A stretch of DNA of 64,000 nucleotides from Thalassobellus citreus (lineage in GTDB: Bacteria > Bacteroidota > Bacteroidia > Flavobacteriales > Flavobacteriaceae), in contig NZ_JBISCC010000113.1 of NCBI RefSeq assembly GCF_044385915.1, forward strand, positions 12,152-76,151, given 5' to 3'. This document shows positions 7,690 to 63,030 of this stretch, piece by piece. Every line of letters starts with the position of its first letter. The first letter of the stretch is position 1. A program made the position numbers and the translations under genes. The notes under the pieces were generated by a model that did not search any database, was not told where the DNA came from, and saw only the letters and a program-made list of their open reading frames with translations.

Positions 7690-8108
7690 GCTTTCTTTAC
7701 TTCAGCTTTTTCAATAATTTCATTTATAACCTTGTCATTTGATCTTTGAAATTGGTTTCCTAAAAAGGTCTTTGTTACCTCTATTTTTCCCTCTATCTGA
7801 TTATTGAATAATTCCATTTCTTCTGAAGGCACCCATAATTCATTATGAATTTCACCACCTACATTTCTAACTTCAAACTTTTTAATGTACTCCGTATTCA
7901 CTTTGAATGCAGTGACAAAACCAGAATATCCAGAAAACTCATCTCCTGTATTCCATTTTAAAGCAATTTCAGAAGCATAATCTTCATTCATCACAGGATA
8001 AAAGATAGGCTGCCAATTTAACCTTGGTGGAAATTTAGAAAAACCACTTTCAATTATAAGTTCTAATTCTTTCAACCCAATCGGCCTATATAATATTATT
8101 GTTTTCAT
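7686..8108 (-). CDS. Hypothetical protein in the ADP-ribose operon
   Basis: ORF translationally coupled to both neighbours by 4-nt overlaps. No recognised motif. Confidence 0.45.
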
Positions 8109-8617
8109 TGTTTTAATAATTTATCATACAACTCATAATTCTCCAGATCAAAACAAACAAAAGAAACTTCTTCAACTGTCTTTTGATTTTTAAAATTTTT
8201 AATAGTATCAATCGCTATTTGAGCTGCTAAATCTTTTGGGAATTTGTAAATCCCCGTACTTATATTTGGAAATGCAATACTTCTAACATTGTTTTCAATT
8301 GCTAAGATCATTGTGTTTTTATAACAATCACTTAAAAGCTTTTCTTTTTCACCTCCTCCTTGATTCCAAACTGGGCCAACTGTGTGAATTACAGATCTAG
8401 CATCTAAGTTTCCCGCTGTTGTTATAACTGCTTCTCCAACATTACATTTTCCTTGCTTGGCTCTAATTTCTTGACAGGCTTTCAGGATTTCTACACCTCC
8501 TTTTCTATGAATAACACCATCAACTCCTGAACCACCTAACAATGAAGAGTTCGCTGCATTCACGATAGCATCAACTTTTATTGATGTTATATCTGATTGT
8601 ATGACTCTTATTTCCAT
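8105..8617 (-). CDS. Macro domain protein (YmdB/MacroD-like O-acetyl-ADP-ribose deacetylase)
   Basis: [27 protein letters not shown] macro signature. Confidence 0.85.
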
Positions 8618-8620
8618 TTT

Positions 8621-9097
8621 TTATTCAAAATCGTAAACATAAACCTCTAGATCACCATTTGATAAGGTTTCAAGTATTATAGGTTCTATTTCTTCCCATT
8701 TCCCACCTGCTAAACCACAGCCAATTCTTGGCATATGAATACTTGCACTTAGTTTTTTTGCTTCAATTGCGATTTCACTTAAACAAGACTTAACCGCATC
8801 ATATCTAATTGGTGCTATTTTATTTACTCGTTTTAATCCTTTCTGAGCAACCATATTTCCAACAAAAACATCTTCAGACACTTGAATTAACTGGGTAGCT
8901 CCTAAAGCAAAATTATTATCAGCTTTATTTTTATACCACTGTCTATATGCCTTTTCAGGCTCTGGCCATTTCTTTGAAATTGCTAATACAAATCCTTTAC
9001 CCCAACCACCCAAATCATTACAGATATGGACAATTATTTTGTTTCCTTCAACTTGTGGAGCCGTAGCATCTCCTTTTAAATATGTTATAGTTTTCAT
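8621..9097 (-). CDS. Second, divergent macro-like domain protein
   Basis: IIVHICNDLGGWGKGFV and HMPRIGCGLAGGKWEE blocks resemble phage-type macro domains. Confidence 0.5.
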   Translation of the reverse strand: MKTITYLKGDATAPQVEGNKIIVHICNDLGGWGKGFVLAISKKWPEPEKAYRQWYKNKADNNFALGATQLIQVSEDVFVGNMVAQKGLKRVNKIAPIRYDAVKSCLSEIAIEAKKLSASIHMPRIGCGLAGGKWEEIEPIILETLSNGDLEVYVYDFE

Positions 9098-9098
9098 T

Positions 9099-10022
9099 TT
9101 ATATTATCAAATTTGCTTTCTCGTCTGCAATACCTATTTCAACATAGCTTCCAGAATTGAAATTTAAAAAATCAGATTCTATACCATCACTAAAAATAAC
9201 ACCTTTTGATGGCATATTAGATTCAACTTTTAATGTTTGTTTTTTTGTTATTATTCCAAAACCTATACTCGCTTGAGTAACCTTGCTTAAAAAAGGTTCC
9301 CTAACTACAAATACAAGTTTTTCATCTTCCCAACGGATTAATGATTGTTCACTTCTTTCTTTGTTAGATTGAATTTTATTAATATTATTCGCCATATTAA
9401 ATATAGAACTTAACCAACCAGTAGCGCCTGCACCAGTAGAAATTATAATTCCACTAGACGAATGCTTTTCTCTTTTACCTTTAAATTCAATATCATATCT
9501 TGAAGAAACATGAGAGTCTGCCCCTATATAAAAATCATTAAAGGCTAATAAGGTTTGTCCATCATTTAATTGCGCTTTTGCCATGGTAACCTGCTTAGTT
9601 TTATAATCTCCTTTAAGAACATTTTTAATAACAACATCTAATTCATCTGAGGTATGCTTTAATAAAACACCATCATAACGTTCTTTATCTGGATTTACAC
9701 CTATAATAGACAAACCTTTAACGTACTTAGCTGTATTTGCAACCAATCCATCTTGCCCAATAACCACTATTAAATCCTTCTCTGTAAAAATATATGTTGG
9801 TAAAAACGAACGATTAATAACTTTATACTTTAATTGCTTCGAAATAGTGTCTTGAATTTTAGACAATGATTTATAAAACGTATCATTTTCAAGCTCATAG
9901 TATCCAAAATCTCCTTCAGATTTTTCAATATAAAACTTGGCTTGAGCTTTTGAGTTAAACCTTTCTATTAGTAACTCTAGCCTTGTTTTGTCTCTTATTA
10001 TGATGACTCTTTCAAACTCCAT
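9099..10022 (-). CDS. NAD kinase-like (ATP-NAD kinase / DAGK fold) protein
   Basis: VVIGQDGLV..IIGVN (GGDG-like) and ISTGAGATGWLSS (NADK TPTGSTAYS-like) blocks. Confidence 0.5.
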   Translation of the reverse strand: MEFERVIIIRDKTRLELLIERFNSKAQAKFYIEKSEGDFGYYELENDTFYKSLSKIQDTISKQLKYKVINRSFLPTYIFTEKDLIVVIGQDGLVANTAKYVKGLSIIGVNPDKERYDGVLLKHTSDELDVVIKNVLKGDYKTKQVTMAKAQLNDGQTLLAFNDFYIGADSHVSSRYDIEFKGKREKHSSSGIIISTGAGATGWLSSIFNMANNINKIQSNKERSEQSLIRWEDEKLVFVVREPFLSKVTQASIGFGIITKKQTLKVESNMPSKGVIFSDGIESDFLNFNSGSYVEIGIADEKANLII

Positions 10023-10027
10023 TTTAT

Positions 10028-11083
10028 TTATGATTTACTTCTTACAATAGAATCTAATAATTCTGGAGAAATATTTAAATTACCTATTTTATCTGCATTT
10101 TCAGCTAGTTCTCTAAAAGCTAAAGCGATATTATTACTTGGGTCATTTCCATTATTACTTATAGCCATGAGCGTTTTCCAATCCAATTCTTTATATGGTT
10201 TTAAATTCGCATTTAGAACATATTCTTTCACATCTGCTTCTTTCTTCTCATTAGTTACTTGAATATCGATAAGCTCTTTTTTCTGTTCCTCAAGAGAAAT
10301 ACTAGAAGTCATTTCCATTTGTTTTAACTTCTGAACATTCTGCTGCTTAACAACATCTGTTTCCATTTTCTTTTCAACGATTTGTTTTTGCTTTTCCTCA
10401 ACAGCAATCTCTGTATTCAATTCACTTTCCTTAATCATACGTTCTTGCTCTACAGCAAAATTTCTACGTTCATAAACAGCTTGATCGGCTTCCTTTTGAA
10501 GAGATTCTCGCATATGAGTTTCTAAAGCACGAGCCATTTCTGGATTAGGTGTAACCCCAAGCACATTAACGCTTAATATTTCTAACCCAAGCATTTGAAC
10601 AGTCTTTGATTTTTGAACATTATTAAAAATCTCTGCCTCAATATCTTCTAACCTCCTCAAAGCTTCCTTCAAACTTAAACACTGAATAATAGATGCACTA
10701 GCAGTTTGAGCTTCATTGATTATTCGTTGCTGAATTTTTTCGTAATCATGTTTCAAATACTGTTTCTTATTATTTACAGTAAAATCTAAAGCTTCAGCAA
10801 GTTGCTTTGGGTTTTCAATCTTATAAGTGACTTGTCCTTGTAAAGTAACTTCTTGATAATCTTTTGTCGTTTCATTGAATACAAATTGAAAATCATTACT
10901 CTGAACTGGAATAGAAACAATTGATGAATTTGGAGAAAAATAAAAGAATGATAAACCTCTGCCTTCTTTCTTGATTTTCCCACCTTTATAATGAATAACG
11001 TAATTCATTGAGTCGAATTTGATATAATTTATTCCTAACATAACTTTGAGTTTTAAATTAGTATTTGCGTAATTATAACACAA
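10028..11083 (-). CDS. SPFH/band-7 domain protein (copy 1) with coiled-coil C-terminus. Likely true start at 11041.
   Basis: MLGINYIKF..HYKGGKIKKEGRGLSFFYF SPFH N-terminus. Long Glu/Lys/Gln-rich helix. Confidence 0.65.
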   Translation of the reverse strand: MCYNYANTNLKLKVMLGINYIKFDSMNYVIHYKGGKIKKEGRGLSFFYFSPNSSIVSIPVQSNDFQFVFNETTKDYQEVTLQGQVTYKIENPKQLAEALDFTVNNKKQYLKHDYEKIQQRIINEAQTASASIIQCLSLKEALRRLEDIEAEIFNNVQKSKTVQMLGLEILSVNVLGVTPNPEMARALETHMRESLQKEADQAVYERRNFAVEQERMIKESELNTEIAVEEKQKQIVEKKMETDVVKQQNVQKLKQMEMTSSISLEEQKKELIDIQVTNEKKEADVKEYVLNANLKPYKELDWKTLMAISNNGNDPSNNIALAFRELAENADKIGNLNISPELLDSIVRSKS

Positions 11084-11165
11084 ATGTAAATAGGAATATT
11101 AAATTCACCAAATATGTTTTGTGTTTTTTTTACGCAAATATATTATTAATCTAATATTCAATAAG

Positions 11166-11843
11166 TTATATTTCAAAAATTATCCCTTCCTTTTTAAGTT
11201 GGAAGTAGCGTTTTTGGTTAAATTGGAATAAATTGGCTGGTCTTCCCGAACCTTTTGATACTTTTTCGTCGAGTTCATCAAGTACATTAAGGCCAATGAT
11301 TTTCTTTCTAAAATTGCGCCTGTCAATTTCTCTGCCTAATAGGGTAGTGTATAATTTTTCTAAATCTGAAAAAGGGAATTTCTTATCGAGTAATTCAAAA
11401 CCAATAGGTTCATAAGTGATTTTTCCTTGTAACCTCTTAATGGCTATTTCAAGGATCTCTTGATGATCAAAAGAGAGTTCTTGTAATTCATCAATATTAA
11501 ACCATTGTACTTCAGCTGCATCAGTAGAAGCAAATATTTTAAATGTGTTCGGTCTTATTAGTCCAAAATAAGCTATAGAAACAACTCTTCCTCTTGGATC
11601 TCTATATGGATTTCCAAAGGTATATAATTGCTCAAGGTAATTAATCTTTACTCCTGTTTCTTCTTGTAATTCTCTCTGAACTGCTTCTTCTAAGGATTCA
11701 TCATTTAATACAAATCCACCTGGGATAGCCCATTTATCTTTGAACGGTTCATACTTTCGTTTTATAAGTAATACTGATATTTTGCCCTCTTCGTAACCAA
11801 ACACGACGGCATCAACGGATAGTTTAATGGATTGATTATTCAT
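11166..11843 (-). CDS. NrtR-like regulator: Nudix hydrolase domain plus C-terminal winged helix
   Basis: Nudix box GGFVLNDESLEEAVQRELQEETGV. C-terminal NFRKKIIGL..GSGRPANLFQF resembles the NrtR DNA-binding domain. Length 225 aa. Confidence 0.6.
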   Translation of the reverse strand: MNNQSIKLSVDAVVFGYEEGKISVLLIKRKYEPFKDKWAIPGGFVLNDESLEEAVQRELQEETGVKINYLEQLYTFGNPYRDPRGRVVSIAYFGLIRPNTFKIFASTDAAEVQWFNIDELQELSFDHQEILEIAIKRLQGKITYEPIGFELLDKKFPFSDLEKLYTTLLGREIDRRNFRKKIIGLNVLDELDEKVSKGSGRPANLFQFNQKRYFQLKKEGIIFEI

Positions 11844-11845
11844 AT

Positions 11846-11862
11846 GCGTAATTTATACGCAA
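11846..11862. promoter_or_regulatory. Palindrome TGCGTA-N5-TACGCA abutting the NrtR-like gene start
   Basis: tgcgtaatttatacgca. It shares the TACGCAAAA half-site with the four-copy cassette but in everted orientation. Confidence 0.35.
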
Positions 11863-11878
11863 AAATACAAAATTTAAC

Positions 11879-14821
11879 TTAAACCATTTTTGTAATAATA
11901 GATTTAAGTGTATTTGTTTCCTTCCATTTTAAGAGTTTTTCCTTAGTAAAAGGATTGATTTCTATTTCTGGGAAATTATACTTTAATTCCAAAAACACTT
12001 CTAACAACTTCTTTGTTCCCCTAATAGGCACATCATTCATATTATGAATCATAAGATCTAAAAGTTTGAATAAAAATTTATTGTGCATTTTAGAAACATT
12101 AAAAAGGTTTGCTGTCAGAAGATCAGTAAACCTTTTAAGCGGTGCATATTCTCCCCATTCTAATCTACCTATAATTTCACCCAATAGTGAATTATTCACT
12201 TTCTCTTCAGAGTTAGCTTTAATCCATATTTCTGCTGCAAGCTCTCTAGCCACTTTATCACTACATAAAAGTCCAGTAGCCAAAAACATATAAGTTGTTT
12301 CTTTATAATCTGCACGATGCCATATTTCATAGAGGCCTTTGAGTAAATTGATCATGTTCTTTTTACTGCTTTCATCAAAAAAAGTAGATTCTTTTAAGTT
12401 GTTATAAATAACATTACTTAAAAACATACTCGGATTATTAGGCGATAGAAACAAGAATTTCACATCATCATGAGGCTGAATAGTAGTATAATATTTCTCC
12501 TTTTTGAAATACATATATTCATAAATACTAACAACATTTTCTTGCTTTTTCTTATTATTGAAAAGATTTTTAATATCAGAGATTAAAGAATCTGGTTCTT
12601 TTTTCTTTTCACCAAATTTTTTGAAACGCAATTCTTTACGGGTCATTGTTTTTAAAACATCTTTCTTAAGAGCATAATCGTATTGTTTATATTTTTCTTC
12701 TCTTAATTTGCAATCCCATGAATAAACCCCTCTTTCTTTTTGTAATGTATTTGATAACTGTTCTTGAAAGTAAGTTATCTCCGAATTTTTATTTCTGCTA
12801 ATAACACTCTGAATCCATAAGTCTGGTCTATCAGTATAAGTCTTTTCAAGTTCAATTAAACCATAATGATACTTTAGAATGTTTTTAATTTTTTTAGTAT
12901 TTATTTCATCTATTTTTTGTGATACATCTTTGGGGAACTCATCTAACGGTAAACGTCCAAAAGCAATTTGCATATCATATAGATTTATTTCCTCATCACT
13001 TTTTTCATATGATATGATTCGATCAATTAAAACCACAGGATCAACCCAGCAAGGTGCGTGCGTTGGTGTAGATAATAAATCTAAAGTCAAACCTCTTTTG
13101 ATGAAGGATTTAGATTTTATAAATAAGAAATGATGTATTTGATATATATAATCTGGAATAGTTTGATGCTCTATTTCTTTTAGATTTTCCTTATACCGTG
13201 ATTTATAAAATCGGTCTTCTTTAAGTTTCTTGATTTTTTGATCCTTAGTTTTTCTGAAGCTTTGAAGTTCAGCAGGGTATTTCTTCATTAATATCTCTGC
13301 GAAGTCATTAATATAATAAGCAGCTTCAGACTCAAGACTTCCAATTTGACTATTCCAGCCATCAAAATTCATCGAAAGATCTAGAGAACGCTTAAAAATA
13401 GGCTCTAGCTTTGAAACATTATCTTTATTTAAAAGCAGGTTCAGCTTTGGCAAATAACTCAAAAGCAAATCTATATGATAAACTTCATTGTTATCAATAA
13501 CCTGACTTACAAAAAAGATTAGATCATCTAGTGTTTCATAGGTAGGTAGTTTGTTTTCTTCAGTCAATAACTTTGACTCTTCAACGTCAAAAACATGATC
13601 TTCAGCTTCTTCTTCTGAAGTTATATAACTCTTTAAGGTTTCTTTCGAAGAGTGAAACAAACTATCAGTGTATAAACTAATTTCATCCAACAGTTCTTGC
13701 TTCTTTGGGTCTCCATGCTTTTCAATAATTTTTGCAGCCCTTAATTGTATTTTCTCATCAACTGTAATTAATGCTTCTGAAGCTTTTTTACAAACCGAGA
13801 TTCTAGAAGCTTTATGAGCTTTAACAATCTTATCCAAAATCATAAGTGTGGAGTTAACTACAGACTTTGTTTCAGAATTCAATTGAATCGAGCTATTTTC
13901 AATAAAGACTTTGTATTTAAACTTTTTATGATCTGCTACAGTTTTAAAATATTTTAATACCGTATTCACAACTTTTGAGTGAGGCGAATTTAGGGCAGCA
14001 AAAAACTCATTCTGTAAACTTAAAATCTCTTCTATAGTAGGAGTTAGTTTAATTAACAGGTCAAAAAACCATCCGCTCAATGTTTTATTAAATCCCTTAG
14101 TGGCTGAACATATAGTCGCTATTAAAACCTTTTTTCTGTTTAGTTTATCATCATTGGTTAAATTAGAAATCGTATCAATCCAAATATCATTACCTCCCTT
14201 ATAATTTTCTAGATGTAAATAGTTATAATAATTGTTGATACCTGATTCTTCTTCAAACAAAAACCAAATATGCTCATCTAAAGTTTCTTTGTGCTTAAAT
14301 AAAACTTCAGGTTTGTAAAAACTTCTATTTTTATTATTCTCCCATTTACTTTCAACTATTGCGTTTGGTAGTCTCGCTAGTATTAATTCATGAGATGGCT
14401 GCAACAAACCTTTTTTGAATAATGTCATCGTCTTTTCGTAATCCAACTCCCAAGGCATGTCTTCATTAATTAAATCACCAAACCATTTAGGAGTATACCA
14501 AGGGATTATGTTTTCTAAATAATCATCAGTAACGGAAAGTTGGCTGACGCTGAAAAAGGCTTTTTTTGCATCTGTTTTGTTAAAACACACATAGCACACT
14601 TTACTAATAATATTTCTTTTAGTTTCAGAATGTATAGGTTTTGAAGTATCATAGGTTCCCCAATCTGATTTCTCTCTAACCATTCGGTGCTCAAAAATCT
14701 TTTCTTTATACTTTTTTAAAAAGGGAACAAGTTCTCTTTTTTCCTTTAGAGTGAGTTTTTTTAAAAAAGGGATTACATCTTTTTCTTTGAAGACAATGTC
14801 TTCTAATTCTTTTTCAAGCAT
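11879..14821 (-). CDS. Large (980 aa) alpha-helical protein of unknown function, possibly DUF4132-like
   Basis: Long ORF with 2-nt spacing to the upstream SWIM gene. No catalytic motif recognised. Confidence 0.55.
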   Translation of the reverse strand: MLEKELEDIVFKEKDVIPFLKKLTLKEKRELVPFLKKYKEKIFEHRMVREKSDWGTYDTSKPIHSETKRNIISKVCYVCFNKTDAKKAFFSVSQLSVTDDYLENIIPWYTPKWFGDLINEDMPWELDYEKTMTLFKKGLLQPSHELILARLPNAIVESKWENNKNRSFYKPEVLFKHKETLDEHIWFLFEEESGINNYYNYLHLENYKGGNDIWIDTISNLTNDDKLNRKKVLIATICSATKGFNKTLSGWFFDLLIKLTPTIEEILSLQNEFFAALNSPHSKVVNTVLKYFKTVADHKKFKYKVFIENSSIQLNSETKSVVNSTLMILDKIVKAHKASRISVCKKASEALITVDEKIQLRAAKIIEKHGDPKKQELLDEISLYTDSLFHSSKETLKSYITSEEEAEDHVFDVEESKLLTEENKLPTYETLDDLIFFVSQVIDNNEVYHIDLLLSYLPKLNLLLNKDNVSKLEPIFKRSLDLSMNFDGWNSQIGSLESEAAYYINDFAEILMKKYPAELQSFRKTKDQKIKKLKEDRFYKSRYKENLKEIEHQTIPDYIYQIHHFLFIKSKSFIKRGLTLDLLSTPTHAPCWVDPVVLIDRIISYEKSDEEINLYDMQIAFGRLPLDEFPKDVSQKIDEINTKKIKNILKYHYGLIELEKTYTDRPDLWIQSVISRNKNSEITYFQEQLSNTLQKERGVYSWDCKLREEKYKQYDYALKKDVLKTMTRKELRFKKFGEKKKEPDSLISDIKNLFNNKKKQENVVSIYEYMYFKKEKYYTTIQPHDDVKFLFLSPNNPSMFLSNVIYNNLKESTFFDESSKKNMINLLKGLYEIWHRADYKETTYMFLATGLLCSDKVARELAAEIWIKANSEEKVNNSLLGEIIGRLEWGEYAPLKRFTDLLTANLFNVSKMHNKFLFKLLDLMIHNMNDVPIRGTKKLLEVFLELKYNFPEIEINPFTKEKLLKWKETNTLKSIITKMV

Positions 14822-53195: not shown

Positions 53196-54404
53196 ATGTC
53201 AACCGTAAAAACCGTATTAAGAAAAACAAAACTTGCTGATGGTAGTTATCCCATCTCTTTAAGAGTATCGAAAGATAGGAAATCGAAATATTTTCAAACG
53301 ATATTTAGAGCTTTCCCAATGGAGTGGAATCAAACAACGGGAAGCTTTACCAATAAAAATTCAAATAGTACCCAAAATAACAGGTTACTTCTTAAATTCA
53401 AGGATAGGGCTTTAAAAATTCTTTCGGACTTAGAAATGGAAAAAGGTGATTTCACTTTAAGAGATTTTGAAAATCGTTTTAGAATTGTGTCCAATCCAGT
53501 ACAGCAAAATGTTTTTTATTTTTGGGATGAGATTATTGGTGAAATGATTTATGCAGGAAGAACCGGCAATGCACGCGTTAATAAAGAAGTGTTCGCTTCT
53601 TTAAATTTATTTCATAAAAGCACTAGACTTAACTTTAAAGACATCACCCCTTCCTTTTTAAATAAATATGAAGCTTTCTTAAGGTCAAGAGGCGGAAGCG
53701 ATGGAGGCATAGGTGTGCGAATGAGAACCATAAGAGCACTATATAACTTTGCTATTGAAAGAAAAATAGCTAAAGAACAGGACTATCCCTTTAAAATTTA
53801 TAAGGTATCAAAACTAAAAGGCAAAAACCTTAAAAAGGCTTTAAGAATGGAAGAAGTCCTTAAGATTAGAGATTTTGATTTAGTAAAATATCCATGGTAT
53901 GTCAATACTAGAAACTATTTTATATTTAGTTTTTACACCAGAGGCATGAATTTTGCCGATATGATGAAACTTGAATGGAAGGCAATTGACAATGATAAGA
54001 TATATTATACAAGATCTAAAACTAAGGGGAATTTTAAAATTAAAATTCTACCCCCTGTCCGAGAGATTTTAAATTATTATAAAGAGTTTGCCATTGATAC
54101 TAAATATGTTTTCCCTATTCTTTTGAAAAATAACTTGACCCCTCCACAATTGGAAAACAGAAAACATAAAACTCTTCAACGCTATAACAAAGAATTAAAA
54201 GAGATTGCAGAAATATGCGGAATTGATAAACCCCTAACAAGTTATGTAGCCAGACATAGTTTTGCAAACTGTTTAAAACAAAAAGGAGTCGCTACCGATA
54301 TTATTAGTGAGTCCATGGGGCATCAAAATCTTAGTATCACACAAACTTATCTCAAGGAATTTGATAATTCTGTTTTAGATGAGGCGATTGAAATTTTGGT
54401 TTGA
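53196..54404 (+). CDS. Tyrosine-type site-specific integrase
   Basis: ARHSFAN..GHQNLSITQTYL catalytic R-H-R-Y blocks. Confidence 0.85.
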   Translation: MSTVKTVLRKTKLADGSYPISLRVSKDRKSKYFQTIFRAFPMEWNQTTGSFTNKNSNSTQNNRLLLKFKDRALKILSDLEMEKGDFTLRDFENRFRIVSNPVQQNVFYFWDEIIGEMIYAGRTGNARVNKEVFASLNLFHKSTRLNFKDITPSFLNKYEAFLRSRGGSDGGIGVRMRTIRALYNFAIERKIAKEQDYPFKIYKVSKLKGKNLKKALRMEEVLKIRDFDLVKYPWYVNTRNYFIFSFYTRGMNFADMMKLEWKAIDNDKIYYTRSKTKGNFKIKILPPVREILNYYKEFAIDTKYVFPILLKNNLTPPQLENRKHKTLQRYNKELKEIAEICGIDKPLTSYVARHSFANCLKQKGVATDIISESMGHQNLSITQTYLKEFDNSVLDEAIEILV

Positions 54405-54906: not shown

Positions 54907-55803
54907 TTAATAGATAAGTAAACTTTCTAGTTCCTTCATATTGAAATTATGCTTTTTTGGGTTATTTTTCTTAAGGGCTAACAGGTTTTGTAACTTCCAT
55001 TGTATCGCTGGAAACTTTTCAAAATCATAAATACTCCAATCTGGAGACGTGTTTTCAAAACTGATAATAAAATTTTTGTCAGTTTCTGTTAAACCTTCTT
55101 GTACCACTTTGACTAGTTTTTCTCGTGTTTGCTCAAAATCTGTATACGAAAAAGGGTTTTCGGTCATACCCATAAATTGGTTTGCAAAAGCTTGTTCTTG
55201 ATTTATAAAATTAGGAAATAACACTTCTTTAATAGGCCTTTTACTGCTCAGTAATGTAAAGATAAAACCTTCTTTGATTTCTTGTGTAAATCCTTCATTT
55301 TCTAACAAATCCTTTACATCAAATAAATCTCTTGGATGTTGTCTATCAAACGCAGCAACTATTTTCCCACCATACAACTGTCCAAACGAGACTCCTTGAA
55401 TTGAACAAAAGACGTCAAACTCTTCTTGCGCTTTATCGCATAAAACCAAGGTACTAGAATCACCTATCAAACCTCTGACACCTTGATTTACTTCAATTTT
55501 AATTAAAGCTTGTTTATTACTTATTTGTAATTTTAGCTTATCCTTTTGATGTTCGACCAATAAATTAGGAAAAATTACATTCAGGCGTTTCTTTATTTCT
55601 CCTAAGGTATTATTGATATTAGTAAAAGATGTTGTTCTATCTTCTATAGGTATATATGTTAAGTCTATATCAACTGACAACCTAGACATATCTCTTACAA
55701 ATAAATTTATAGCGGTTCCTCCATGAAGAGCAAAACACTTTTCTTTTGCTACTTCAGGAATTACACTTAAAAGTAAACGAACTTGATTCTTATAATTATT
55801 CAT
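54907..55803 (-). CDS. AbiEii/AbiGii-family nucleotidyltransferase toxin
   Basis: CFALHGGTAINLFVRDMSRLSVDIDLTYI. Confidence 0.7.
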   Translation of the reverse strand: MNNYKNQVRLLLSVIPEVAKEKCFALHGGTAINLFVRDMSRLSVDIDLTYIPIEDRTTSFTNINNTLGEIKKRLNVIFPNLLVEHQKDKLKLQISNKQALIKIEVNQGVRGLIGDSSTLVLCDKAQEEFDVFCSIQGVSFGQLYGGKIVAAFDRQHPRDLFDVKDLLENEGFTQEIKEGFIFTLLSSKRPIKEVLFPNFINQEQAFANQFMGMTENPFSYTDFEQTREKLVKVVQEGLTETDKNFIISFENTSPDWSIYDFEKFPAIQWKLQNLLALKKNNPKKHNFNMKELESLLIY

Positions 55804-56617
55804 CGACTAAATTTTTAGGAACCGTTATTTTGTACTCTGAATCATAGACACCATCAACAACGATTTGTCGTTTCCCTTTTCCCATGTCAATATGCTCAAC
55901 GTTTACAAATTCTAGCCACGGATGGCGACACTTATTAGCCAAATATAAAAACAATCGTTTTACTTTTACAGATGTACAGGCTTCTAGCAATTGTTGCACT
56001 TGATTAGGACGTAAATTATTCAACCCTTGCATAAGCTCATAGCATTCTTTTAAATCTTGCTTTTTAGGAGCTAAATACAAGCACTCCATGATTGCTCGTG
56101 CTGCACCTGATACTTTTATATAAAATCCATTAACTTCTACATCGGTCAAACCTAAATCAGCTGGCAAAAATGACGTAGAATAATAATTTATCTCCATACC
56201 CCAATTATAGTTTTTCAACCAAGAAGGGATGCGCTCATTTTCATTTCCAAAAAGTGTAAACTGCTGTCTTGAAAATTCTAGATAATGAGCCTTTCCTAAA
56301 AGATTTAAAGCTGATTTACCACCTGGATGCACACCGAGTTTACCTTGTGATTGCAAAGCAAATATAGCTCCTTCGATGGTAGTAGTGTCACCGCTTTTTA
56401 CAAAAGCTCCATTATTTAAAGGGGTTATCCAATTGCTCTTTTTATATCGGCTCAATAACTGATGTGAATACCCATTTTCTACCAACCATGAAGTAAGGTA
56501 AACAGCATTTTGCGGCCAACCTCGTAAAAGACGGTTTATTTTATGTGATTTTTCTAAACTCAAAGTGTAGTTTTGCGCAAAATTATAAACCAAATATAAA
56601 AAATTGTTTATAATCAT
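55796..56617 (-). CDS. AbiEi-family antitoxin / transcriptional regulator
   Basis: N-terminal wHTH-like LTSWLVENGYSHQLLSRYKKSNWITPLNNGAF. Overlaps the AbiEii start. Confidence 0.55.
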   Translation of the reverse strand: MIINNFLYLVYNFAQNYTLSLEKSHKINRLLRGWPQNAVYLTSWLVENGYSHQLLSRYKKSNWITPLNNGAFVKSGDTTTIEGAIFALQSQGKLGVHPGGKSALNLLGKAHYLEFSRQQFTLFGNENERIPSWLKNYNWGMEINYYSTSFLPADLGLTDVEVNGFYIKVSGAARAIMECLYLAPKKQDLKECYELMQGLNNLRPNQVQQLLEACTSVKVKRLFLYLANKCRHPWLEFVNVEHIDMGKGKRQIVVDGVYDSEYKITVPKNLVDE

Positions 56618-56785: not shown

Positions 56786-58684
56786 ATGTTTAAACCTCCC
56801 CAAATAAATTCTGATTACTTTCTTATTGTAAATTACGAAAAGCCCTTGTTAACTGCTGTCGTTTCAAGTTATGTAAACAATGTTGGATATTATGTTCCAA
56901 CTTTTGAGTTTGCTGAGGTTACTTCAAATGCAAAGGATTTTGATGAAACAAAACTAGGTGATGGAGAAATTGATGAACATTATATAAGTAGGGTTAGGTC
57001 TCAAGAATTCAATATTAAAGTACACAACTCACTAAAACGATTAAGGGGATGCAAATATTTAATTATTATCGGTCTATCCAAAAATCAAATAAGTTATTTA
57101 GATTTTTTAAATGATTACAATACAATATATGTGGATACGATTGAGGAAGTAGACTTTACCCTAAGTCATTTGGTTGAAAAATCAGGCTATCTTCCTTGTA
57201 ATAGAAGTAATGCTTATGATGCTCTATATGTATCAATAGAAAATAACTTAATGCTTCAAATCGATGAAAGCGCAGGAGATATAGTATTTGATGATTCTAA
57301 TAAAAGGGGAGTCATAGTAGTGGATAGAGTTGATAATTCTACATTGCCTTTAGCGATAAGCTATGCAACAGCTGTAAATGCTAATTTAAAATTAATAGAT
57401 TCACCTGATGTTGATAAATCAAAATATAGAATACTTATACAAAAGTGGAAAGAGAAAGCATCTGAAGGAATTGAAGACCAATCTGCTTTTAACGATTTAA
57501 GTGCACTAATATACCCATCGCTTGAACATATTGATTTTTTGAAATATGAATTCGCAACTTTCTTTACTAAAGGAGCTCCTTATGGACTAATTCTTAAAAA
57601 CCAGATTCCTATTTCTCATGTACATCTTCAATTACTGCCAGATTTTTTTCTTTTTAATAATATTCAAATTGATAGCTTTTCTGACACTCCAAGTGCAGTA
57701 GTGTTTTCTCCGTTAGAATTTCAAGATGAAGAAACGGATTCAGTAATCGATTATTTAGAAAGTAAAAATCTATTTGTGAAGTCATTGATAGGTAAGAATG
57801 CCACGGTTTTTAATCTTGATAATCATATTAAAGAATATCCTTATAGTGTGCTCCATATATGTAGTCACGGAGGTGAAATCGAAGGGTCTCGAATTACTGA
57901 AATCTTTAAAGACAGAGACGGAAATGACCATACTATTATTTATGACGAAGTTGCTACTTTTGCCTTATCTCCTTATCAAGACCTACATCCTGTTACTATC
58001 AAAAGTTTTTTTAGAACTTTTGATGGCTATATTTGGAGAAGTAAGGAGCTTAAAGCTATAGAACATCCGCAGTATATTTTCTCAGACATGACTAATCATC
58101 TCAGAAAAAAAGAGAATAAGGACAGAAGTAAAAAAGTAATCGTAGATGGTTCTTGTTATATAAAGTGTTATGTTTCTCACTCTCAAGCTATTTTTCGTCA
58201 TTTGGCTTCGGGGCATTCACCTTTGATATTTAATAATACTTGTTGGTCTTGGTTAGACATTTCTGAATCTTTTCTTGCAGTAGGAGCAAAAGCTTACATT
58301 GGAACACTTTGGGCAATAAATAATAATGTGGCTAAAATATCTGCTGAACTTTTCTATGAAGATATTTTTAATGGTACAATCATGGAAGCATTTTACAAAA
58401 TGCAGCAAAAAACGATGGGTACAAAAGATGAAAATATATATAGTTTTTGGGGGTTACATTTTAGCAAGGTTATGTCAGGTGTCAATAAGGAATCTAGTAG
58501 AAAAATAGTTTTGTTGAAAATGCACAAGTCATTACAGGTTTGGAAGGATAAGCTTGAAAATACAACTAGGGAAGGGATGAGAAAGAATATTAATGAATTT
58601 ATTGATTGGAATGCACGTGAACAAGTTAAAGATTTTAAGAAGGAGATAACAGAAATGTATTTAAGAGATAAAAAGATTAAATAA
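56786..58684 (+). CDS. CHAT-domain (caspase-like) protease with unknown 330-aa N-terminal region
   Basis: VLHICSHGG (H-x3-HG dyad) and IFNNTCWSW catalytic Cys block. Confidence 0.65.
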   Translation: MFKPPQINSDYFLIVNYEKPLLTAVVSSYVNNVGYYVPTFEFAEVTSNAKDFDETKLGDGEIDEHYISRVRSQEFNIKVHNSLKRLRGCKYLIIIGLSKNQISYLDFLNDYNTIYVDTIEEVDFTLSHLVEKSGYLPCNRSNAYDALYVSIENNLMLQIDESAGDIVFDDSNKRGVIVVDRVDNSTLPLAISYATAVNANLKLIDSPDVDKSKYRILIQKWKEKASEGIEDQSAFNDLSALIYPSLEHIDFLKYEFATFFTKGAPYGLILKNQIPISHVHLQLLPDFFLFNNIQIDSFSDTPSAVVFSPLEFQDEETDSVIDYLESKNLFVKSLIGKNATVFNLDNHIKEYPYSVLHICSHGGEIEGSRITEIFKDRDGNDHTIIYDEVATFALSPYQDLHPVTIKSFFRTFDGYIWRSKELKAIEHPQYIFSDMTNHLRKKENKDRSKKVIVDGSCYIKCYVSHSQAIFRHLASGHSPLIFNNTCWSWLDISESFLAVGAKAYIGTLWAINNNVAKISAELFYEDIFNGTIMEAFYKMQQKTMGTKDENIYSFWGLHFSKVMSGVNKESSRKIVLLKMHKSLQVWKDKLENTTREGMRKNINEFIDWNAREQVKDFKKEITEMYLRDKKIK

Positions 58685-58698
58685 ATCAAGATAAATAG

Positions 58699-61600
58699 AT
58701 GGGTGCAATTTCAGCATTAAAAGGTTATAGAACACAATTTTTATACACATTATATAGGATTCTTAAAGATTATCGAAAAAACTACACATTCAAGCCAGAA
58801 GGGTTTTATGAGGATTTAGATATTATTGATGAAAAAGGAAATTATGTAGAAGTTATTCAGGTTAAAAATAAATCAAGAACATTAGTTTTTACTGATTTGT
58901 TTTCTAATAAGGATTCATTTTTTAAGAGAGCTAGTAAGCTTATAGATAATCAGGAGAAAGCTATTGTAAAGTTGGTTTCATTTGGTGAAGTGAGTAATGA
59001 ACTAATTGAAAAATCTGCATTGTCAAAAAAGTTGCGTAAAAAGGGATTCGATTCAGTTAAAATAGATAGAATTTTAAGCAATTATCAAGTTCCAGAAATT
59101 GTTAAAGAAGAAACTTTATATAAGGAAATAATAGAGTTACTAAACGATATTAGACCTTTTTCGAATCCATCTATAGCGATAGAATTATTAGTTTTTTGGA
59201 TTTATAAATCTGCTGAAAAACAAAGAAAAATTGATGCTAAGAAAATAATATTAAATTTGGATTCTATAGGAGTATTCCTTAATGAACAAAAATCATTTTT
59301 AAACCAGTTTGGTAATACCATTTTGCCTTTTAATAATAGAACATTAAATGAAGCTAATTCGGTTAAACTAGAAGAAGAGTTTTACTATGGGGTTTCGTCT
59401 AGATATGAACATATTCTATCAAACTTAGATATTAGTAGAACAGAAAAGCTATATACTATAGATAAAGCTTTTAAAGAGACTAATGTTATATTTATTCATG
59501 GTGCTTCTGGTCAAGGAAAAAGTACTTTAGCTTATAGATATATACATGATTTTTCAGAGAGTAATACTTCATATGAATTAAAACTATCCAATAATTATAA
59601 TGAGTTATATGAAACTATTAGTAGTTTAAATGCTTTATGTAAAGAATTATCTTTTCCAATATTAATTTATATAGATATAAAATCTCAAGACGTTTATTGG
59701 AACGATTTACTTCAGCAATTATCTGTAAAAAAGAATCTTCAATTTTTGATAACGATTAGGCAAGAAGACTGGAATAGAGTTACTCTTGGTGTTGATTATA
59801 ATTTTAAAGATATAGAATTAATATTTGATAAAACAGAAGCCGAAATTATTTATAAAAGCTTATCAAAATATAAAAAGGAGTTAAAGTTTACAGATTTTGA
59901 AGAATCATGGTTAAAGTTTGGTAATAAAGGACTTTTATTAGAATATGTTTATTTAATTAATCAAGGAGACACTTTAAAAGCCAGATTAGAAAGTCAAATT
60001 AGTAGATTAGAGCAGGAAGAAAAAATAAGTGAATTAGAAACATTACGTTTTGTGTGTTTATCAGATTCCTATGGAGCTAAAATTAATTACAAAAAGCTAA
60101 TTGATTTTATTCAGATTAATAGAAGTCTATCAAACAGAGTTGTAAAAAACCTTGAAAAAGAGTATCTCTTAAAGTTTACTGAAAACAAAGAATTTTTAAC
60201 AGGGTTGCACCCTATACGCTCAGAAATTTTATGTGATATTTTATTTAAAGAGAATGATTACATTGATATTAATGATTATATCAACGATTCTATACCACTA
60301 TTGTTTGAAGGTGATATATATTCTTTTTTGCTAAATGGTTTCAATTTTGGATACGATGTTGAAACTTTTTTGGATATAGTCAAAAAATATGATTTTAAAA
60401 GTTGGATTGGAAATATTAACGTATTGAATGCCCTTCTTTGGAAAGGTGTGAGTGATTTTCTTTTTAAAAAGAATAAAGAACCTTTTGAAACACTATATAA
60501 TGAGTTTGGTACAATTTGGGAGTTAGTTTTACCTTATGATTATGCAAATGTAACTGGGGACGAAGGATTAATACCATCAAATATGTTATCGGAAGATTTT
60601 AGTCTTAGAATAAAAGATATTAAAAATAGTATATCTCCCAAAGAAGATATTTTTGAATATATTTTAAGATGGATTAGTTCTAAAGACAATATTTCATGTG
60701 AATTATGTGACAAGAAAGAACTTGTTGCTTTAGGAGAGTATACTTTTTGGATTGGTCATTTAAATCTTGACGCTAATATAGTTATTGATGAACACATACT
60801 TCTAGCTCTTTTTGATAGAGAAGTTTCTTTGAAAGATATTTCAGTATTATTACTAGGTCTTCAATCGATAAATTTTTCTGTTGATTTTATCGATAATTAC
60901 AGAAAGTTATTCTTATCAAGGTTATTAGAAGAATATAGCATTGTTGATTTAAAAGAAAGCAATGACAACCATATTTCTTGTAGTTACATTATCGATTATT
61001 TAAAGTATGAATTTGAAGAAGTAAAAGAAACAAATTATCTGCAAAATAAATCTACAGAAATTCTTGAGCTTTTGAGAAACGTTTTTCCTGATAAAGATTC
61101 TTACTCTACAAAAGCAGTGAATAATTCTTTTTTGGATATTGAGTTACCTTATGACCCTAGTAACAAAAATATAAAGCATAATTTATTGCCTTTAGGTTAT
61201 TTAGTGCAAGTAAATGGTTTAATTAATAGTTTGTTTATTCATCAATTTCGACCTGATTCATGGGAAACATACGTGTCAAAAATAATTGAAAACAGAGGGA
61301 AATATAATTTTGCATTAACAGAGGTAATTAAAGGGTTTCAAGAGTATTTTAGAAAAAGGGATTATAAAGTGTTTATAAAAGCTTTAGAGGTAGCGGAAAA
61401 GGAGTTAGAAGGAGTATACAAGGTTAAATTTCCTAAAAATATAGTTGATAAATGGGGGTATGTTTCTGAAGGGACTAATGAAAAATATTTAAATGATAAA
61501 GATGAATCATTAGTAAAGACAACAACAATAGCTTCAATAAAAAAGTATTTAGATTTTAATAAAATTAATAGAGATTACTTTTCAAGCTTAGATAATGTTT

Positions 61601-62700
61601 TTAATCAATTAGGGAGCAATATATTGTCTGTATATAAACTTTATTCAGGTGTTGAAGATTCAGAAGATTATAACCCAAATGTTCTTTACAGTAATATATC
61701 TGAAGCTTTAATTAAAGTTTCGAAATTTCAAAATGAGTTTGAAAAGCATTTTTCTAAATTTTGTAATTCAGAAAAATTAGAAAGAATAGAAAGTATTGAG
61801 AGTAGAAGTCTTGAGGCATTATTTTATAGTTGGAATCAATTTTATAATCAAGGAAATAGAAAAATTAGTAGTAAGTTATATATTAATTCAAGGAAAGAGT
61901 TTAGTGATATTAAGAAAAATCTCAGTAAAAGGTTTTTAAAAGAACGAAAAGATATTTTTGAATTAGCTGGTATTCTATTTAATGTTGAACTATCAGAGAA
62001 TACGAGTAAAAACCTTGTTGTCACAGCTGAAGTTGATTCAGAGATTTACTTTGCTTCATTACTCTATGCTAGAGTATTTATACAAAATACGCTCAGAGCT
62101 AGTTACTTTAGTGCTAAAGGAATAATGGTTAGAGACAATGTTCAATCCGTTATTTATATACCATTAATTCACGGAAAGCCAATAAATAAAAAAGCATATA
62201 GAATTCATACACATAATTTAGATGAGGAATTTGATGGAGATGATTGGTATCGTTTTTTTAGTTTTTTTGATGATATAGATAAAGAATTAATAGATTATTT
62301 GAAACTTGAATTTTGGAATGAAGAAAATGATAGTATTAGATTCTATGAATCAGTAATGGGTGAGATTACTAATATTCAACAATTTCAAAAACAAATAGAA
62401 AAAATAAATTCAGAAGCTAGAGATTTTGATTTTAATAACACTGAAGTTATATCAAAATATGTAAATAAACTTGAAAATTTTCTTAAAAATAGAAAATTTG
62501 AAATTTCAAAAGGATGGCAATCAATTGAATACTTGATTGATGATAAAGATTTTTTTAATAATGTAAACTCTCATATAATTAATTCTGATGTAAATAAGGT
62601 GTATCCAGATATATCTGATATTCAAATTCGTTTATCTGAAGAATATAATTCTTTTACTAACCGAGCTATTGAATACAAATTAAATGATATAATTGAGTGA
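58699..62700 (+). CDS. STAND/NACHT-like NTPase (1333 aa, Avs-like) with N-terminal 250-aa putative effector domain and long helical C-terminus
   Basis: Walker A IFIHGASGQGKSTLAYRY. Walker B ILIYIDIK. N-terminus has EDLDIID..VEVIQVK, possibly PD-(D/E)xK-like. Confidence 0.65.
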   Translation: MGAISALKGYRTQFLYTLYRILKDYRKNYTFKPEGFYEDLDIIDEKGNYVEVIQVKNKSRTLVFTDLFSNKDSFFKRASKLIDNQEKAIVKLVSFGEVSNELIEKSALSKKLRKKGFDSVKIDRILSNYQVPEIVKEETLYKEIIELLNDIRPFSNPSIAIELLVFWIYKSAEKQRKIDAKKIILNLDSIGVFLNEQKSFLNQFGNTILPFNNRTLNEANSVKLEEEFYYGVSSRYEHILSNLDISRTEKLYTIDKAFKETNVIFIHGASGQGKSTLAYRYIHDFSESNTSYELKLSNNYNELYETISSLNALCKELSFPILIYIDIKSQDVYWNDLLQQLSVKKNLQFLITIRQEDWNRVTLGVDYNFKDIELIFDKTEAEIIYKSLSKYKKELKFTDFEESWLKFGNKGLLLEYVYLINQGDTLKARLESQISRLEQEEKISELETLRFVCLSDSYGAKINYKKLIDFIQINRSLSNRVVKNLEKEYLLKFTENKEFLTGLHPIRSEILCDILFKENDYIDINDYINDSIPLLFEGDIYSFLLNGFNFGYDVETFLDIVKKYDFKSWIGNINVLNALLWKGVSDFLFKKNKEPFETLYNEFGTIWELVLPYDYANVTGDEGLIPSNMLSEDFSLRIKDIKNSISPKEDIFEYILRWISSKDNISCELCDKKELVALGEYTFWIGHLNLDANIVIDEHILLALFDREVSLKDISVLLLGLQSINFSVDFIDNYRKLFLSRLLEEYSIVDLKESNDNHISCSYIIDYLKYEFEEVKETNYLQNKSTEILELLRNVFPDKDSYSTKAVNNSFLDIELPYDPSNKNIKHNLLPLGYLVQVNGLINSLFIHQFRPDSWETYVSKIIENRGKYNFALTEVIKGFQEYFRKRDYKVFIKALEVAEKELEGVYKVKFPKNIVDKWGYVSEGTNEKYLNDKDESLVKTTTIASIKKYLDFNKINRDYFSSLDNVFNQLGSNILSVYKLYSGVEDSEDYNPNVLYSNISEALIKVSKFQNEFEKHFSKFCNSEKLERIESIESRSLEALFYSWNQFYNQGNRKISSKLYINSRKEFSDIKKNLSKRFLKERKDIFELAGILFNVELSENTSKNLVVTAEVDSEIYFASLLYARVFIQNTLRASYFSAKGIMVRDNVQSVIYIPLIHGKPINKKAYRIHTHNLDEEFDGDDWYRFFSFFDDIDKELIDYLKLEFWNEENDSIRFYESVMGEITNIQQFQKQIEKINSEARDFDFNNTEVISKYVNKLENFLKNRKFEISKGWQSIEYLIDDKDFFNNVNSHIINSDVNKVYPDISDIQIRLSEEYNSFTNRAIEYKLNDIIE

Positions 62701-62808: not shown

Positions 62809-63030
62809 TTATGCTTTCTTGGGCAGCTTTATATCTTTACAAACCTCCTTTAATAATTCACTTGGATCTTCATCAATTGCAAGTGCTATTAAGTATAATT
62901 CTTTTACTTTTAATTGTGTGTTTTCATTATTTGAGAGTTCGCTTAATCGCGTTTTACTAAGTCCAGTCTTGCGGGATACATCTGATCTATTTATTGATTT
63001 CTTAGCAAAGTAGAGTCCTAATTTTGTCAT
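62809..63030 (-). CDS. XRE-family HTH transcriptional regulator
   Basis: SRKTGLSKTRLSELSNN HTH. Confidence 0.6.
   Translation of the reverse strand: MTKLGLYFAKKSINRSDVSRKTGLSKTRLSELSNNENTQLKVKELYLIALAIDEDPSELLKEVCKDIKLPKKA

What the first reader, a model, noticed from the sequence alone, without database searches (positions are those of the whole stretch)
56786..62700. Two-gene candidate defence system: CHAT protease directly followed by a 1333-aa STAND NTPase with a possible nuclease-like N-terminus
The CHAT ORF has the H-x3-HG dyad and the Cys block of caspase-like CHAT proteases, after a 330-aa unknown N-terminal region. Fifteen nucleotides downstream starts a giant P-loop NTPase with Walker A GASGQGKST. 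It has a roughly 250-aa N-terminal domain containing a D..E-x3-Q-x-K pattern (possible PD-(D/E)xK or Mrr-like effector) and about 900 aa of helical repeats. This is typical Avs/bNACHT sensor architecture. CHAT-STAND linkage is known at the domain level, but a separate-gene CHAT plus a nuclease-like STAND on a mobile island is a plausible uncharacterised two-effector system.
Basis: partly seen in the sequence, partly recalled or inferred. Interest (0 to 1): 0.72.

Follow-up and report, generated by a model that had tools for sequence, protein, structure and literature searches.

The report
CHAT protease beside nuclease-STAND immune gene
Two real, intact bacterial immune-type genes sit back to back in a flavobacterial defence island: a caspase-like protease and a large ATP-switch sensor carrying a DNA-cutting domain. 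Across nature each almost always occurs without the other, so they are more likely two independent defence genes that became a small mobile cassette than one obligate two-part system.

Summary

The two-gene-system reading is only partly supported. Only 2 of 79 genomic CHAT loci carry the STAND, and 0 of 72 STAND loci carry the CHAT. The nearest relatives of both genes are unpaired, and the families share no adaptor domain. Against that, the pair travels as a tight cassette (1-14 nt gap) in five intact loci with different flanks. A second, non-sister pairing exists in Flavobacterium sediminis in the reverse order, with overlapping ORFs.

Best reading: two autonomous single-gene modules, juxtaposed and mobilised together. 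I put functional coupling at about 0.3. The STAND is a new member of a known kind. The CHAT family is uncharacterised.

The parts
56786..58684 (+). Gene for a 632-aa stand-alone CHAT (clan CD, caspase-like) protease
56786..57685 (+). CHAT protein residues 1-300: two family-specific alpha/beta domains (about 5-160 and 170-300), function unknown
   Evidence: No Pfam match. Confident alpha/beta model. An exhaustive search finds this region only at the N-terminus of 610-670-aa proteins of the same family, 187 clusters.
57683..58465 (+). Caspase-like catalytic core (residues about 300-560), with a beta-hairpin insert at 362-460
   Evidence: Secondary structure of the model and fold matches.
57866..57871 (+). 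Codons for His361-Gly362, the predicted catalytic His of the dyad
   Evidence: Invariant in 40 homologs. Lies just after strand 355-358 in the model. The assignment as catalytic is an inference from the clan-CD fold.
58241..58243 (+). Codon for Cys486, the predicted catalytic Cys (in FNNTCWS)
   Evidence: Invariant in 40 homologs. Follows strand 480-483. Inference from the clan-CD fold.
58685..58698 (+). 14-nt intergenic spacer between the CHAT and STAND genes
   Evidence: Sequence. No terminator-like site between the genes. The spacer is 1-14 nt in the five intact paired loci.
58699..62700 (+). Gene for a 1333-aa Avs-like STAND NTPase with an N-terminal nuclease
   Evidence: ORF. Pfam nSTAND_NTPase5 37.9 bits against cut-off 34. 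488 homologs of conserved length, about 1320-1420 aa.
58699..59313 (+). Cap4/LmuA/DUF4297-type PD-(D/E)xK nuclease domain (residues 1 to about 205)
   Evidence: Model pLDDT above 90 over residues 10-150. Foldseek: LmuA 4e-6, HerA-DUF4297 1e-5, Cap4 5e-3, Avs3 TMq 0.55. 14 of 24 family members hit Pfam Cap4_nuclease, best 2.9e-12, while the window protein itself is sub-threshold at 17.3 bits. Homolog P0116 hits PADLOC LmuA at 8e-15.
58810..58866 (+). Codons spanning the predicted nuclease active site: E38-D39 ... E51 ... Q54-V-K56
   Evidence: E38, D39, Q54 and K56 are invariant and E51 is at least 90% conserved. They align with the EG..ED.D...Q.K core of PDB DUF4297 chain 8ziq.
59377..59877 (+). 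STAND NTPase domain (residues about 227-393), including Walker A 268-276 (nt 59500-59526), Walker B D326 and the TxR motif R354
   Evidence: Pfam nSTAND5 and nSTAND3 alignments. Invariant A269-K274, D326 and R354.
60376..62697 (+). C-terminal region of about 770 aa, the presumed sensor; fold not determined
   Evidence: Conserved in length across the family with scattered invariant residues. No Pfam match in the window protein or 7 homologs. It is the most divergent part among the paired loci.
53196..54404 (+). Tyrosine integrase (context: left part of the island)
   Evidence: Pfam Arm-DNA-bind_5, Phage_int_SAM_5 and Phage_integrase.
54907..56617 (-). AbiEii toxin (54907-55803) and AbiEi antitoxin (55796-56617), a known type IV TA/abortive-infection pair (context)
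   Evidence: Pfam. PADLOC AbiEii 1e-116 and AbiEi 2e-86.
62809..63030 (-). 73-aa HTH (Cro/C1-type) gene convergent with the STAND gene (context)
   Evidence: Pfam HTH_26 3.9e-9. An 89%-identical copy lies at the same relative place in Mariniflexile locus L001.

Best explanation
These are two autonomous single-gene immune modules that were juxtaposed into a compact, probably co-transcribed and co-mobilised cassette in a small clade of Flavobacteriaceae. They sit inside a defence island (integrase, AbiE, the pair, HTH, HEPN).

Module 1 is an Avs-like pattern-recognition STAND. Its C-terminal region is inferred to bind a phage-derived ligand. That would release autoinhibition and allow ATP-dependent oligomerisation through the nSTAND5 NTPase. 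Oligomerisation would then assemble the N-terminal Cap4-type nuclease domains into an active DNase that degrades DNA and aborts infection, as shown for SeAvs3 and SeAvs7.

Module 2 is a stand-alone 630-aa CHAT protease. Its two family-specific N-terminal alpha/beta domains are inferred to regulate or sense, and its His361/Cys486 caspase-like core cleaves an unknown host or phage target.

What is shown: the domain identities, the conserved catalytic residues, the island context and the phyletic pattern. What is inferred: the triggers, the oligomerisation, the substrates, the anti-phage activity and the independence of the two proteins.
For: Domain assignments.

Each family is overwhelmingly found without the other:
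- 2 of 79 genomic CHAT loci have the STAND (56 of the 79 have at least 4 kb on both sides).
- 0 of 72 complete STAND loci have the CHAT, by HMM or by tblastn.
- The annotated neighbourhoods of STAND homologs P0005, P0006, P0008, P0011, P0086 and a Pseudanabaena plasmid copy lack a CHAT.
- CHAT homologs P0126, P0129 and P0227 lack a STAND.

No neighbour family recurs for either gene. Solitary copies lie among R-M, McrBC, Schlafen-like, GmrSD, HEPN, PLD, integrase and transposase genes. There is no shared adaptor domain (hhalign probability 0.15%). The STAND carries its own complete effector, and the CHAT N-terminal module is always fused to CHAT, so both are self-contained architectures.

The Cap4-STAND-sensor mechanism is established for SeAvs3 and SeAvs7 (PMC13581612).
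Against: The pair is retained with a 1-14 nt spacer in five intact loci whose flanks differ, and the two genes have co-diverged to 76-91% identity.

The same two families are also adjacent in Flavobacterium sediminis. There the order is reversed, the ORFs overlap and an ADP-ribosyltransferase gene follows. Unpaired relatives separate the two paired lineages in both trees. My own rough order-of-magnitude estimate, not computed with any tool, is that two independent tight juxtapositions are more than random neighbour choice would give.

No experiment shows that either gene defends against phage. The sensor fold of the STAND was not determined.
Confidence: 0.55

Rival explanations
1. The pair is a functionally coupled two-effector system in these lineages. 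The STAND senses the phage and, once oligomerised, recruits or activates the separately encoded CHAT protease. Alternatively, the CHAT processes and licenses the STAND nuclease. Either way, nuclease and protease arms fire together, in an apoptosome-like manner.
For: There is an operon-like 1-14 nt spacer and no terminator between the genes. The cassette is kept intact across five loci with different flanks and with co-divergence. A second, non-sister association exists in the reverse order with overlapping ORFs in F. sediminis. There are precedents of STANDs working with proteases: Avs2-trypsin-MBL (bioRxiv 10.64898/2026.08.25.746987) and bacterial Apaf-1-like STANDs with N-terminal caspase-like domains (PMC13581612).
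Against: More than 95% of sampled members of each family lack the partner. Sister lineages of both paired clades are unpaired. No shared adaptor or EAD-like domain was found. The STAND already has its own effector. Both known pairings lie in defence islands or hot spots where accretion of unrelated defence genes is common: the pdxA-ribE site in both the window and F. sediminis.
Confidence: 0.3
2. The CHAT protein is not an immune effector. It would instead be a cargo or regulatory protease of mobile elements, for example one acting on ICE or host proteins, that merely hitch-hikes next to an Avs-like gene.
For: Several CHAT homologs lie directly downstream of conjugation genes, namely DUF5712 and a TraG/TrwB-like coupling protein. 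There is no PADLOC match for any family member tested.
Against: Other homologs sit among classical defence genes with no conjugation genes nearby. ICE cargo regions are themselves typical homes of defence genes. The catalytic dyad is strictly conserved, as expected of an active effector.
Confidence: 0.12
3. One or both ORFs are decaying pseudogenes or chance ORFs.
For: In MAG locus L002 both genes are split into fragments.
Against: Both ORFs are full length in the window. All catalytic residues are intact and invariant, hundreds of full-length homologs exist, and the structure models are high-confidence. The L002 breaks may be indel errors of a long-read MAG.
Confidence: 0.02

Closest known systems
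Avs3 / Avs7 (antiviral STAND with N-terminal Cap4-type nuclease; SeAvs3 PDB 8dgc, SeAvs7 in PMC13581612)
   Same: The tripartite layout is the same: an N-terminal Cap4-type PD-(D/E)xK nuclease, a STAND NTPase and a large C-terminal region. The N-terminal model superposes on the Avs3 effector (TMq 0.55). It is a single-gene module in defence islands.
   Different: The NTPase belongs to a different clade (Pfam nSTAND5/nSTAND3) and has no PADLOC Avs hit. There is no sequence-level match to Avs3 in the PDB. The C-terminal region matches no TPR or other Pfam model. The ligand and the activity are untested.
Lamassu LmuA, HerA-DUF4297 and CBASS Cap4 nucleases (Pfam PF14130)
   Same: These are the best fold matches of STAND residues 1 to about 205, with the same conserved GY.xQ / EG..ED.D / Q.K core. 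Family member P0116 hits PADLOC LmuA at 8e-15.
   Different: Here the nuclease is fused to a STAND NTPase. In the other systems it is fused to or partnered with SMC-like LmuB/C, HerA or a SAVED sensor. No such partners are in the locus.
CHAT proteases of immune systems: SAVED-CHAT (CBASS, PDB 8tl0), TPR-CHAT/Csx29 (type III-E Craspase), DdvA
   Same: They share the clan-CD caspase-like core with a His/Cys dyad and give strong fold matches.
   Different: The window protein has no SAVED, TPR or transmembrane sensor part. Instead it has two alpha/beta domains unique to this family. No cyclase, CRISPR or sigma-factor partner is nearby, and no conserved partner of any kind was found.
Avs2-trypsin-MBL, and bacterial Apaf-1-like STANDs with caspase-like N-termini
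   Same: Both are precedents of a STAND sensor coupled to a protease effector.
   Different: In those systems the protease is fused to the STAND or belongs to a co-evolving module. Here it is a separate gene that is absent from nearly all family members.

Membership tests
CHAT / clan CD caspase-like peptidases (Pfam PF12770) | Profile match above the curated threshold | tested here: met
   32.2 bits against a cut-off of 24, E=9.8e-8.
CHAT / clan CD caspase-like peptidases (Pfam PF12770) | Caspase-hemoglobinase fold | tested here: met
CHAT / clan CD caspase-like peptidases (Pfam PF12770) | Conserved catalytic His (HG) and Cys dyad | tested here: met
   H361-G362 and C486 are invariant in 40 homologs. 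They follow strands 355-358 and 480-483 of the model.
CHAT / clan CD caspase-like peptidases (Pfam PF12770) | Proteolytic activity | not testable with these tools
   Needs biochemistry.
STAND NTPase (Pfam nSTAND_NTPase5, PF25199) | Profile match above the curated threshold | tested here: met
   37.9 bits against a cut-off of 34. nSTAND3 and NB-ARC are sub-threshold.
STAND NTPase (Pfam nSTAND_NTPase5, PF25199) | Walker A, Walker B and sensor-1-like Arg conserved | tested here: met
   A269-K274, D326 and R354 (in TIR) are invariant in 40 homologs. The assignment of R354 as sensor 1 is an inference.
STAND NTPase (Pfam nSTAND_NTPase5, PF25199) | Winged-helix domain after the NTPase, and a repeat-type C-terminal sensor | tested here: inconclusive
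   There is only a weak MarR/SlyA-like sequence match at residues 430-522 (E=0.012). No Pfam repeats match in the C-terminus.
Cap4 / DUF4297 dsDNA endonuclease domain (Pfam PF14130) | Profile match of the window protein above threshold | tested here: not met
   17.3 bits against a cut-off of 26.2, E=0.006.
Cap4 / DUF4297 dsDNA endonuclease domain (Pfam PF14130) | Family-level profile match, fold and catalytic residues | tested here: met
   14 of 24 aligned homologs hit PF14130, best 2.9e-12. Foldseek: LmuA 4e-6, HerA-DUF4297 1e-5, Cap4 5e-3. E38, D39, Q54 and K56 are invariant. PADLOC LmuA 8e-15 for P0116.
Avs (antiviral STAND) systems, Avs3/Avs7 type | Effector-NTPase-sensor tripartite single protein located in defence islands | tested here: met
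   Domain order. Defence-island contexts.
Avs (antiviral STAND) systems, Avs3/Avs7 type | Match to curated Avs models | tested here: not met
   No PADLOC Avs/AVAST hit for the window protein or for homologs P0013, P0086 and P0116. PADLOC dates from 2023; newer Avs families could not be checked because no supplement is held.
Avs (antiviral STAND) systems, Avs3/Avs7 type | Recognition of a phage protein and anti-phage activity | not testable with these tools
   Needs phage challenge and co-expression assays.
Obligate two-gene defence operon (CHAT + STAND) | The partners co-occur across the breadth of both families | tested here: not met
   2 of 79 CHAT loci and 0 of 72 STAND loci. Unpaired sister lineages.
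Obligate two-gene defence operon (CHAT + STAND) | The pair is retained as a unit when the flanks change | tested here: met
   Window, L001, L163, L164 and L165 have spacers of 1-14 nt and different neighbours. One further independent pairing is in L169.
Obligate two-gene defence operon (CHAT + STAND) | Shared adaptor (EAD-type) domain, or predicted physical interaction | tested here: not met
   hhalign of the two family profiles gives probability 0.15%.

The most novel reading that the evidence does not exclude
The stand-alone CHAT protease would be a recurrently recruited second arm of a Cap4-nuclease STAND receptor. It has been captured at least twice, in both gene orders. Phage sensing by the STAND would then trigger both DNA degradation and caspase-like proteolysis from separate polypeptides. 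That would be a bacterial apoptosome-like two-protein system, without a shared adaptor domain.
Probability: 0.25. Interest if true: 0.7.

Novelty: new member of a known kind. Interest (0 to 1): 0.4.

Why it matters
The STAND adds an untested, Bacteroidota-centred family to the Cap4-nuclease Avs-type receptors. It has an nSTAND5 NTPase, a Cap4/LmuA-like nuclease and an unclassified ~800-aa sensor, and its ligand could reveal another phage protein sensed by bacterial NLR-like receptors.

The CHAT family (about 190 clusters at 50% identity) has a unique N-terminal module and is absent from PADLOC. It is a reasonable candidate for a new single-gene protease-based defence.

If the two do cooperate, the locus would give a simple genetic model of STAND-to-caspase signalling between separate bacterial proteins. 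The present evidence makes that the minority reading.

Tried and rejected
1. Sequence-only searches of the PDB with either protein or with the family profiles gave only P-loop noise and a weak DUF4297 hit. The fold search was needed.
2. PADLOC and NCBIfam gave no significant hit for either window protein.
3. I looked for a conserved neighbour of either family by clustering the genes within three positions of the anchor gene in 151 loci (79 CHAT, 72 STAND). None was found beyond close relatives.
4. The 560-670-aa genes next to distant STANDs did not match the CHAT family HMM. From my own reading of their sequences, without a profile search, they look like methylases, an OLD-like ATPase, helicases and a split STAND. 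So I rejected the idea that they are divergent CHATs.
5. The 304-aa gene upstream of STAND P0005 is a TPR-containing, signal-peptide-like protein, not a CHAT fragment.
6. Sigma-70 promoter and Bacteroidota TAnnTTTG scans were no better than chance, so operon structure could not be shown.
7. The direct-repeat search for island att sites found nothing convincing. The right end of the island probably lies beyond the window.
8. Plasmid collection: no CHAT relative was found. One monocistronic STAND relative was found on a Pseudanabaena plasmid.
9. The supplements of the 2026 STAND survey are not held, so an Avs family number could not be looked up.
10. A Mrr-like assignment of the nuclease is rejected in favour of the Cap4/LmuA type.
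Full report
**Observation.** The upstream protein passes Pfam's curated CHAT threshold (32.2 bits against 24). The downstream protein passes the nSTAND_NTPase5 threshold (37.9 against 34). PADLOC (2023) and NCBIfam recognise neither. The CHAT protein is 100% identical to a protein of Thalassobellus citreus, a member of the Flavobacteriaceae. This fits the 26-36% G+C of the window and the neighbouring housekeeping genes.

**The CHAT protein.** In an alignment of 40 homologs at 38-77% identity, H357, C359, H361 and G362 (LHICSHGGE) and N483, N484, C486 and S488 (FNNTCWS) are invariant.

In the model, His361 follows strand 355-358 and Cys486 follows strand 480-483. I infer that this is the clan-CD arrangement. 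A beta-hairpin insert (362-460) and a C-terminal helical bundle (568-631) decorate the core.

Residues 1-300 form two alpha/beta domains with no Pfam match. An exhaustive HMMER search of 1.84 billion representative proteins finds this region in 187 clusters. It always lies at the N-terminus of 610-670-aa proteins of this same architecture, apart from shorter hits that look like fragments. It is therefore a family-specific module permanently attached to CHAT, not a sensor domain shared with other effectors.

**The STAND protein.** Walker A (GASGQGKST, 268-276), Walker B (D326) and a TxR-type arginine (R354) are invariant in 40 homologs down to 26% identity.

The N-terminal 245 residues alone give only a sub-threshold Cap4_nuclease hit (17.3 bits against 26.2). 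However, 14 of 24 aligned family members hit that model, the best at 2.9e-12.

A model of the domain (pLDDT above 90 over residues 10-150) matches the following structures:
- Lamassu LmuA (4e-6)
- HerA-DUF4297 (1e-5)
- CBASS Cap4 (5e-3)
- the N-terminal effector of Avs3 (TMq 0.55)

The cyanobacterial family member P0116 hits PADLOC's LmuA model at 8e-15. The invariant residues G9, Q13, Y16, E34, G35, E38, D39, Q54 and K56 align with the GY.xQ / EG..ED.D / Q.K core of a solved DUF4297 chain.

The ~800-900 C-terminal residues match nothing in Pfam, either in the window protein or in seven diverse homologs. I could not model them, so 'helical repeats' remains unverified.

The overall layout (Cap4 nuclease, then STAND NTPase, then a large C-terminal region) is that of SeAvs3 and SeAvs7. 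In those proteins, binding of a phage protein by the sensor drives ATP-dependent tetramerisation that assembles the Cap4 domains into an active DNase (PMC13581612).

A scan of one genome per species with the CHAT profile gave 79 loci, of which 56 have at least 4 kb on both sides. Only two carry this STAND next to the CHAT. Both belong to the window's own clade: Mariniflexile aquimaris, which is intact, and a Flavobacteriaceae MAG in which both genes are fragmented. Two further loci (L020, L041) hold only distant STAND-like hits several kb away from the CHAT.

A metagenome scan with the STAND profile gave 80 loci, 72 of them with a complete STAND ORF. None contains a CHAT-family gene, by HMM or by tblastn.

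Clustering the genes within three positions of the anchor gene in all of these loci showed no recurrent partner for either family.

The annotated neighbourhoods agree:
- The nearest STAND outgroups, P0005 (57% identity) and P0006 (53%), have no CHAT.
- The nearest CHAT outgroup, P0126 (59%), has no STAND.
- More distant copies are solitary genes among R-M, McrBC, Schlafen-like, GmrSD, HEPN, PLD, integrase, transposase or conjugation genes.
- A profile-profile comparison finds no domain shared by the two families (probability 0.15%). The adaptor-domain logic that links separately encoded effectors to STANDs in Aravind-type conflict systems (PMC8195603) therefore does not apply.

**Evidence that keeps the coupling idea alive.** Within the window's clade the pair behaves as a unit. 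Five intact loci keep a 1-14 nt spacer while the flanks differ:

| Locus | Flanking genes |
|---|---|
| Window | integrase and AbiE upstream, HTH downstream |
| Mariniflexile (L001) | AbiE upstream |
| Dokdonia (L163) | 187-aa integrase-like gene upstream |
| Logan contig (L164) | resolvase downstream |
| L165 | peptidase S9 upstream, ABC-like ATPase downstream |

Both proteins have diverged in parallel to 76-91% identity.

Unexpectedly, Flavobacterium sediminis carries a 46%-identical STAND followed by a full-length member of the same CHAT family (913 bits against the family HMM, 45% identity to the window's CHAT). The two ORFs overlap by 11 nt. An overlapping ADP-ribosyltransferase gene comes next, and the locus lies at the same pdxA-ribE chromosomal site as in the window.

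Neighbour-joining trees place unpaired relatives between the two paired lineages in both families. On the STAND side these are P0011, which is 73% identical to the F. sediminis STAND and solitary, together with P0005, P0006 and P0008. On the CHAT side they are P0126, P0129, P0131, P0132, P0138 and P0143. The adjacency therefore arose twice, or was lost many times.

**Weighing.** Both proteins are complete, self-contained architectures that nearly always occur alone. That argues for two autonomous modules joined by the accretion typical of defence islands. The joined pair was then mobilised as a mini-cassette.

Two independent, operon-tight juxtapositions are more than I would expect from random neighbour choice. 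This is my own rough order-of-magnitude estimate and was not computed with any tool. Both pairings also involve a shared integration hot spot, which inflates chance adjacency.

I therefore put independent modules at about 0.55, functional coupling at about 0.3, a non-defence role for the CHAT at about 0.12, and pseudogene or chance ORFs at about 0.02. Promoter and terminator scans could not settle co-transcription: the promoter-like motifs are at chance level, and there is no terminator-like site between the genes.

**Novelty and verdict.** The STAND is a new, untested member of the known Cap4-nuclease Avs-type receptors. It lies in an NTPase clade already catalogued as nSTAND5. A 2026 survey counts 589 STAND clades, 198 of them defence-associated.

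The CHAT family is an uncharacterised stand-alone protease family, absent from PADLOC and not described in the literature I could search.

The combination is interesting as a lead but is not established as a system.

Noticed in passing
window 63151-64000 (+), runs off the window end: Partial ORF of at least 283 aa with a HEPN domain (Pfam 7.1e-10, above cut-off) and an R-x5-H motif (TTRYKNNYH). It is probably another toxin or defence gene of the same island.
   Followed up: partly
window 54907-56617 (-): A complete AbiEii/AbiEi type IV toxin-antitoxin/abortive-infection pair lies directly upstream of, and divergent from, the CHAT gene (PADLOC 1e-116 and 2e-86). The same pair precedes the cassette in Mariniflexile locus L001.
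   Followed up: yes
L169 (Flavobacterium sediminis CP029463.1) 7001-13602: STAND, then CHAT, then a 247-aa ADP-ribosyltransferase (ADPrib_exo_Tox, 9.5e-13), as three overlapping ORFs. They lie at the same pdxA-ribE site as the window's island, so this site looks like a defence-island hot spot in Flavobacteriaceae.
   Followed up: partly
L160 10701-11264, L166 5092-5655, L163 7140-7703, L002 about 2467-3026: A 187-aa 'Phage_integrase' mini-gene (82-84% identical between loci) accompanies the STAND or the CHAT-STAND cassette in four loci. It may mark a small mobile element that carries these genes. It is not present in the part of the island held in the window.
   Followed up: no
L006-L010 and L047 (for example L008 7323-15500): A CHAT subclade lies in a conserved block: DUF5712, then a TraG/TrwB-like coupling protein, then CHAT, then an 849-aa unknown protein, then a Schlafen AlbA_2 gene. 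This looks like the cargo end of an integrative conjugative element. The 849-aa protein has no Pfam match.
   Followed up: partly
L012 about 6262 and L016 (gene directly after the CHAT, 3-nt gap): A 245-248-aa protein with no Pfam match follows the CHAT with a 3-nt spacer in two unrelated genomes. It is another possible occasional partner of the CHAT family.
   Followed up: no
L041 545-2197 (-) and L020 16528-17505 (+): Distant relatives of the STAND (28-33% identity) lie 5-8 kb from a CHAT-family gene but are not adjacent to it. L041 covers the nuclease and NTPase regions. These are co-residents of the same islands.
   Followed up: no
window 34197-36248 (+) and L165 4958-7150: A prolyl-oligopeptidase (Peptidase_S9) gene lies about 20 kb upstream in the window and directly upstream of the cassette in L165. 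This is probably coincidental housekeeping synteny.
   Followed up: no
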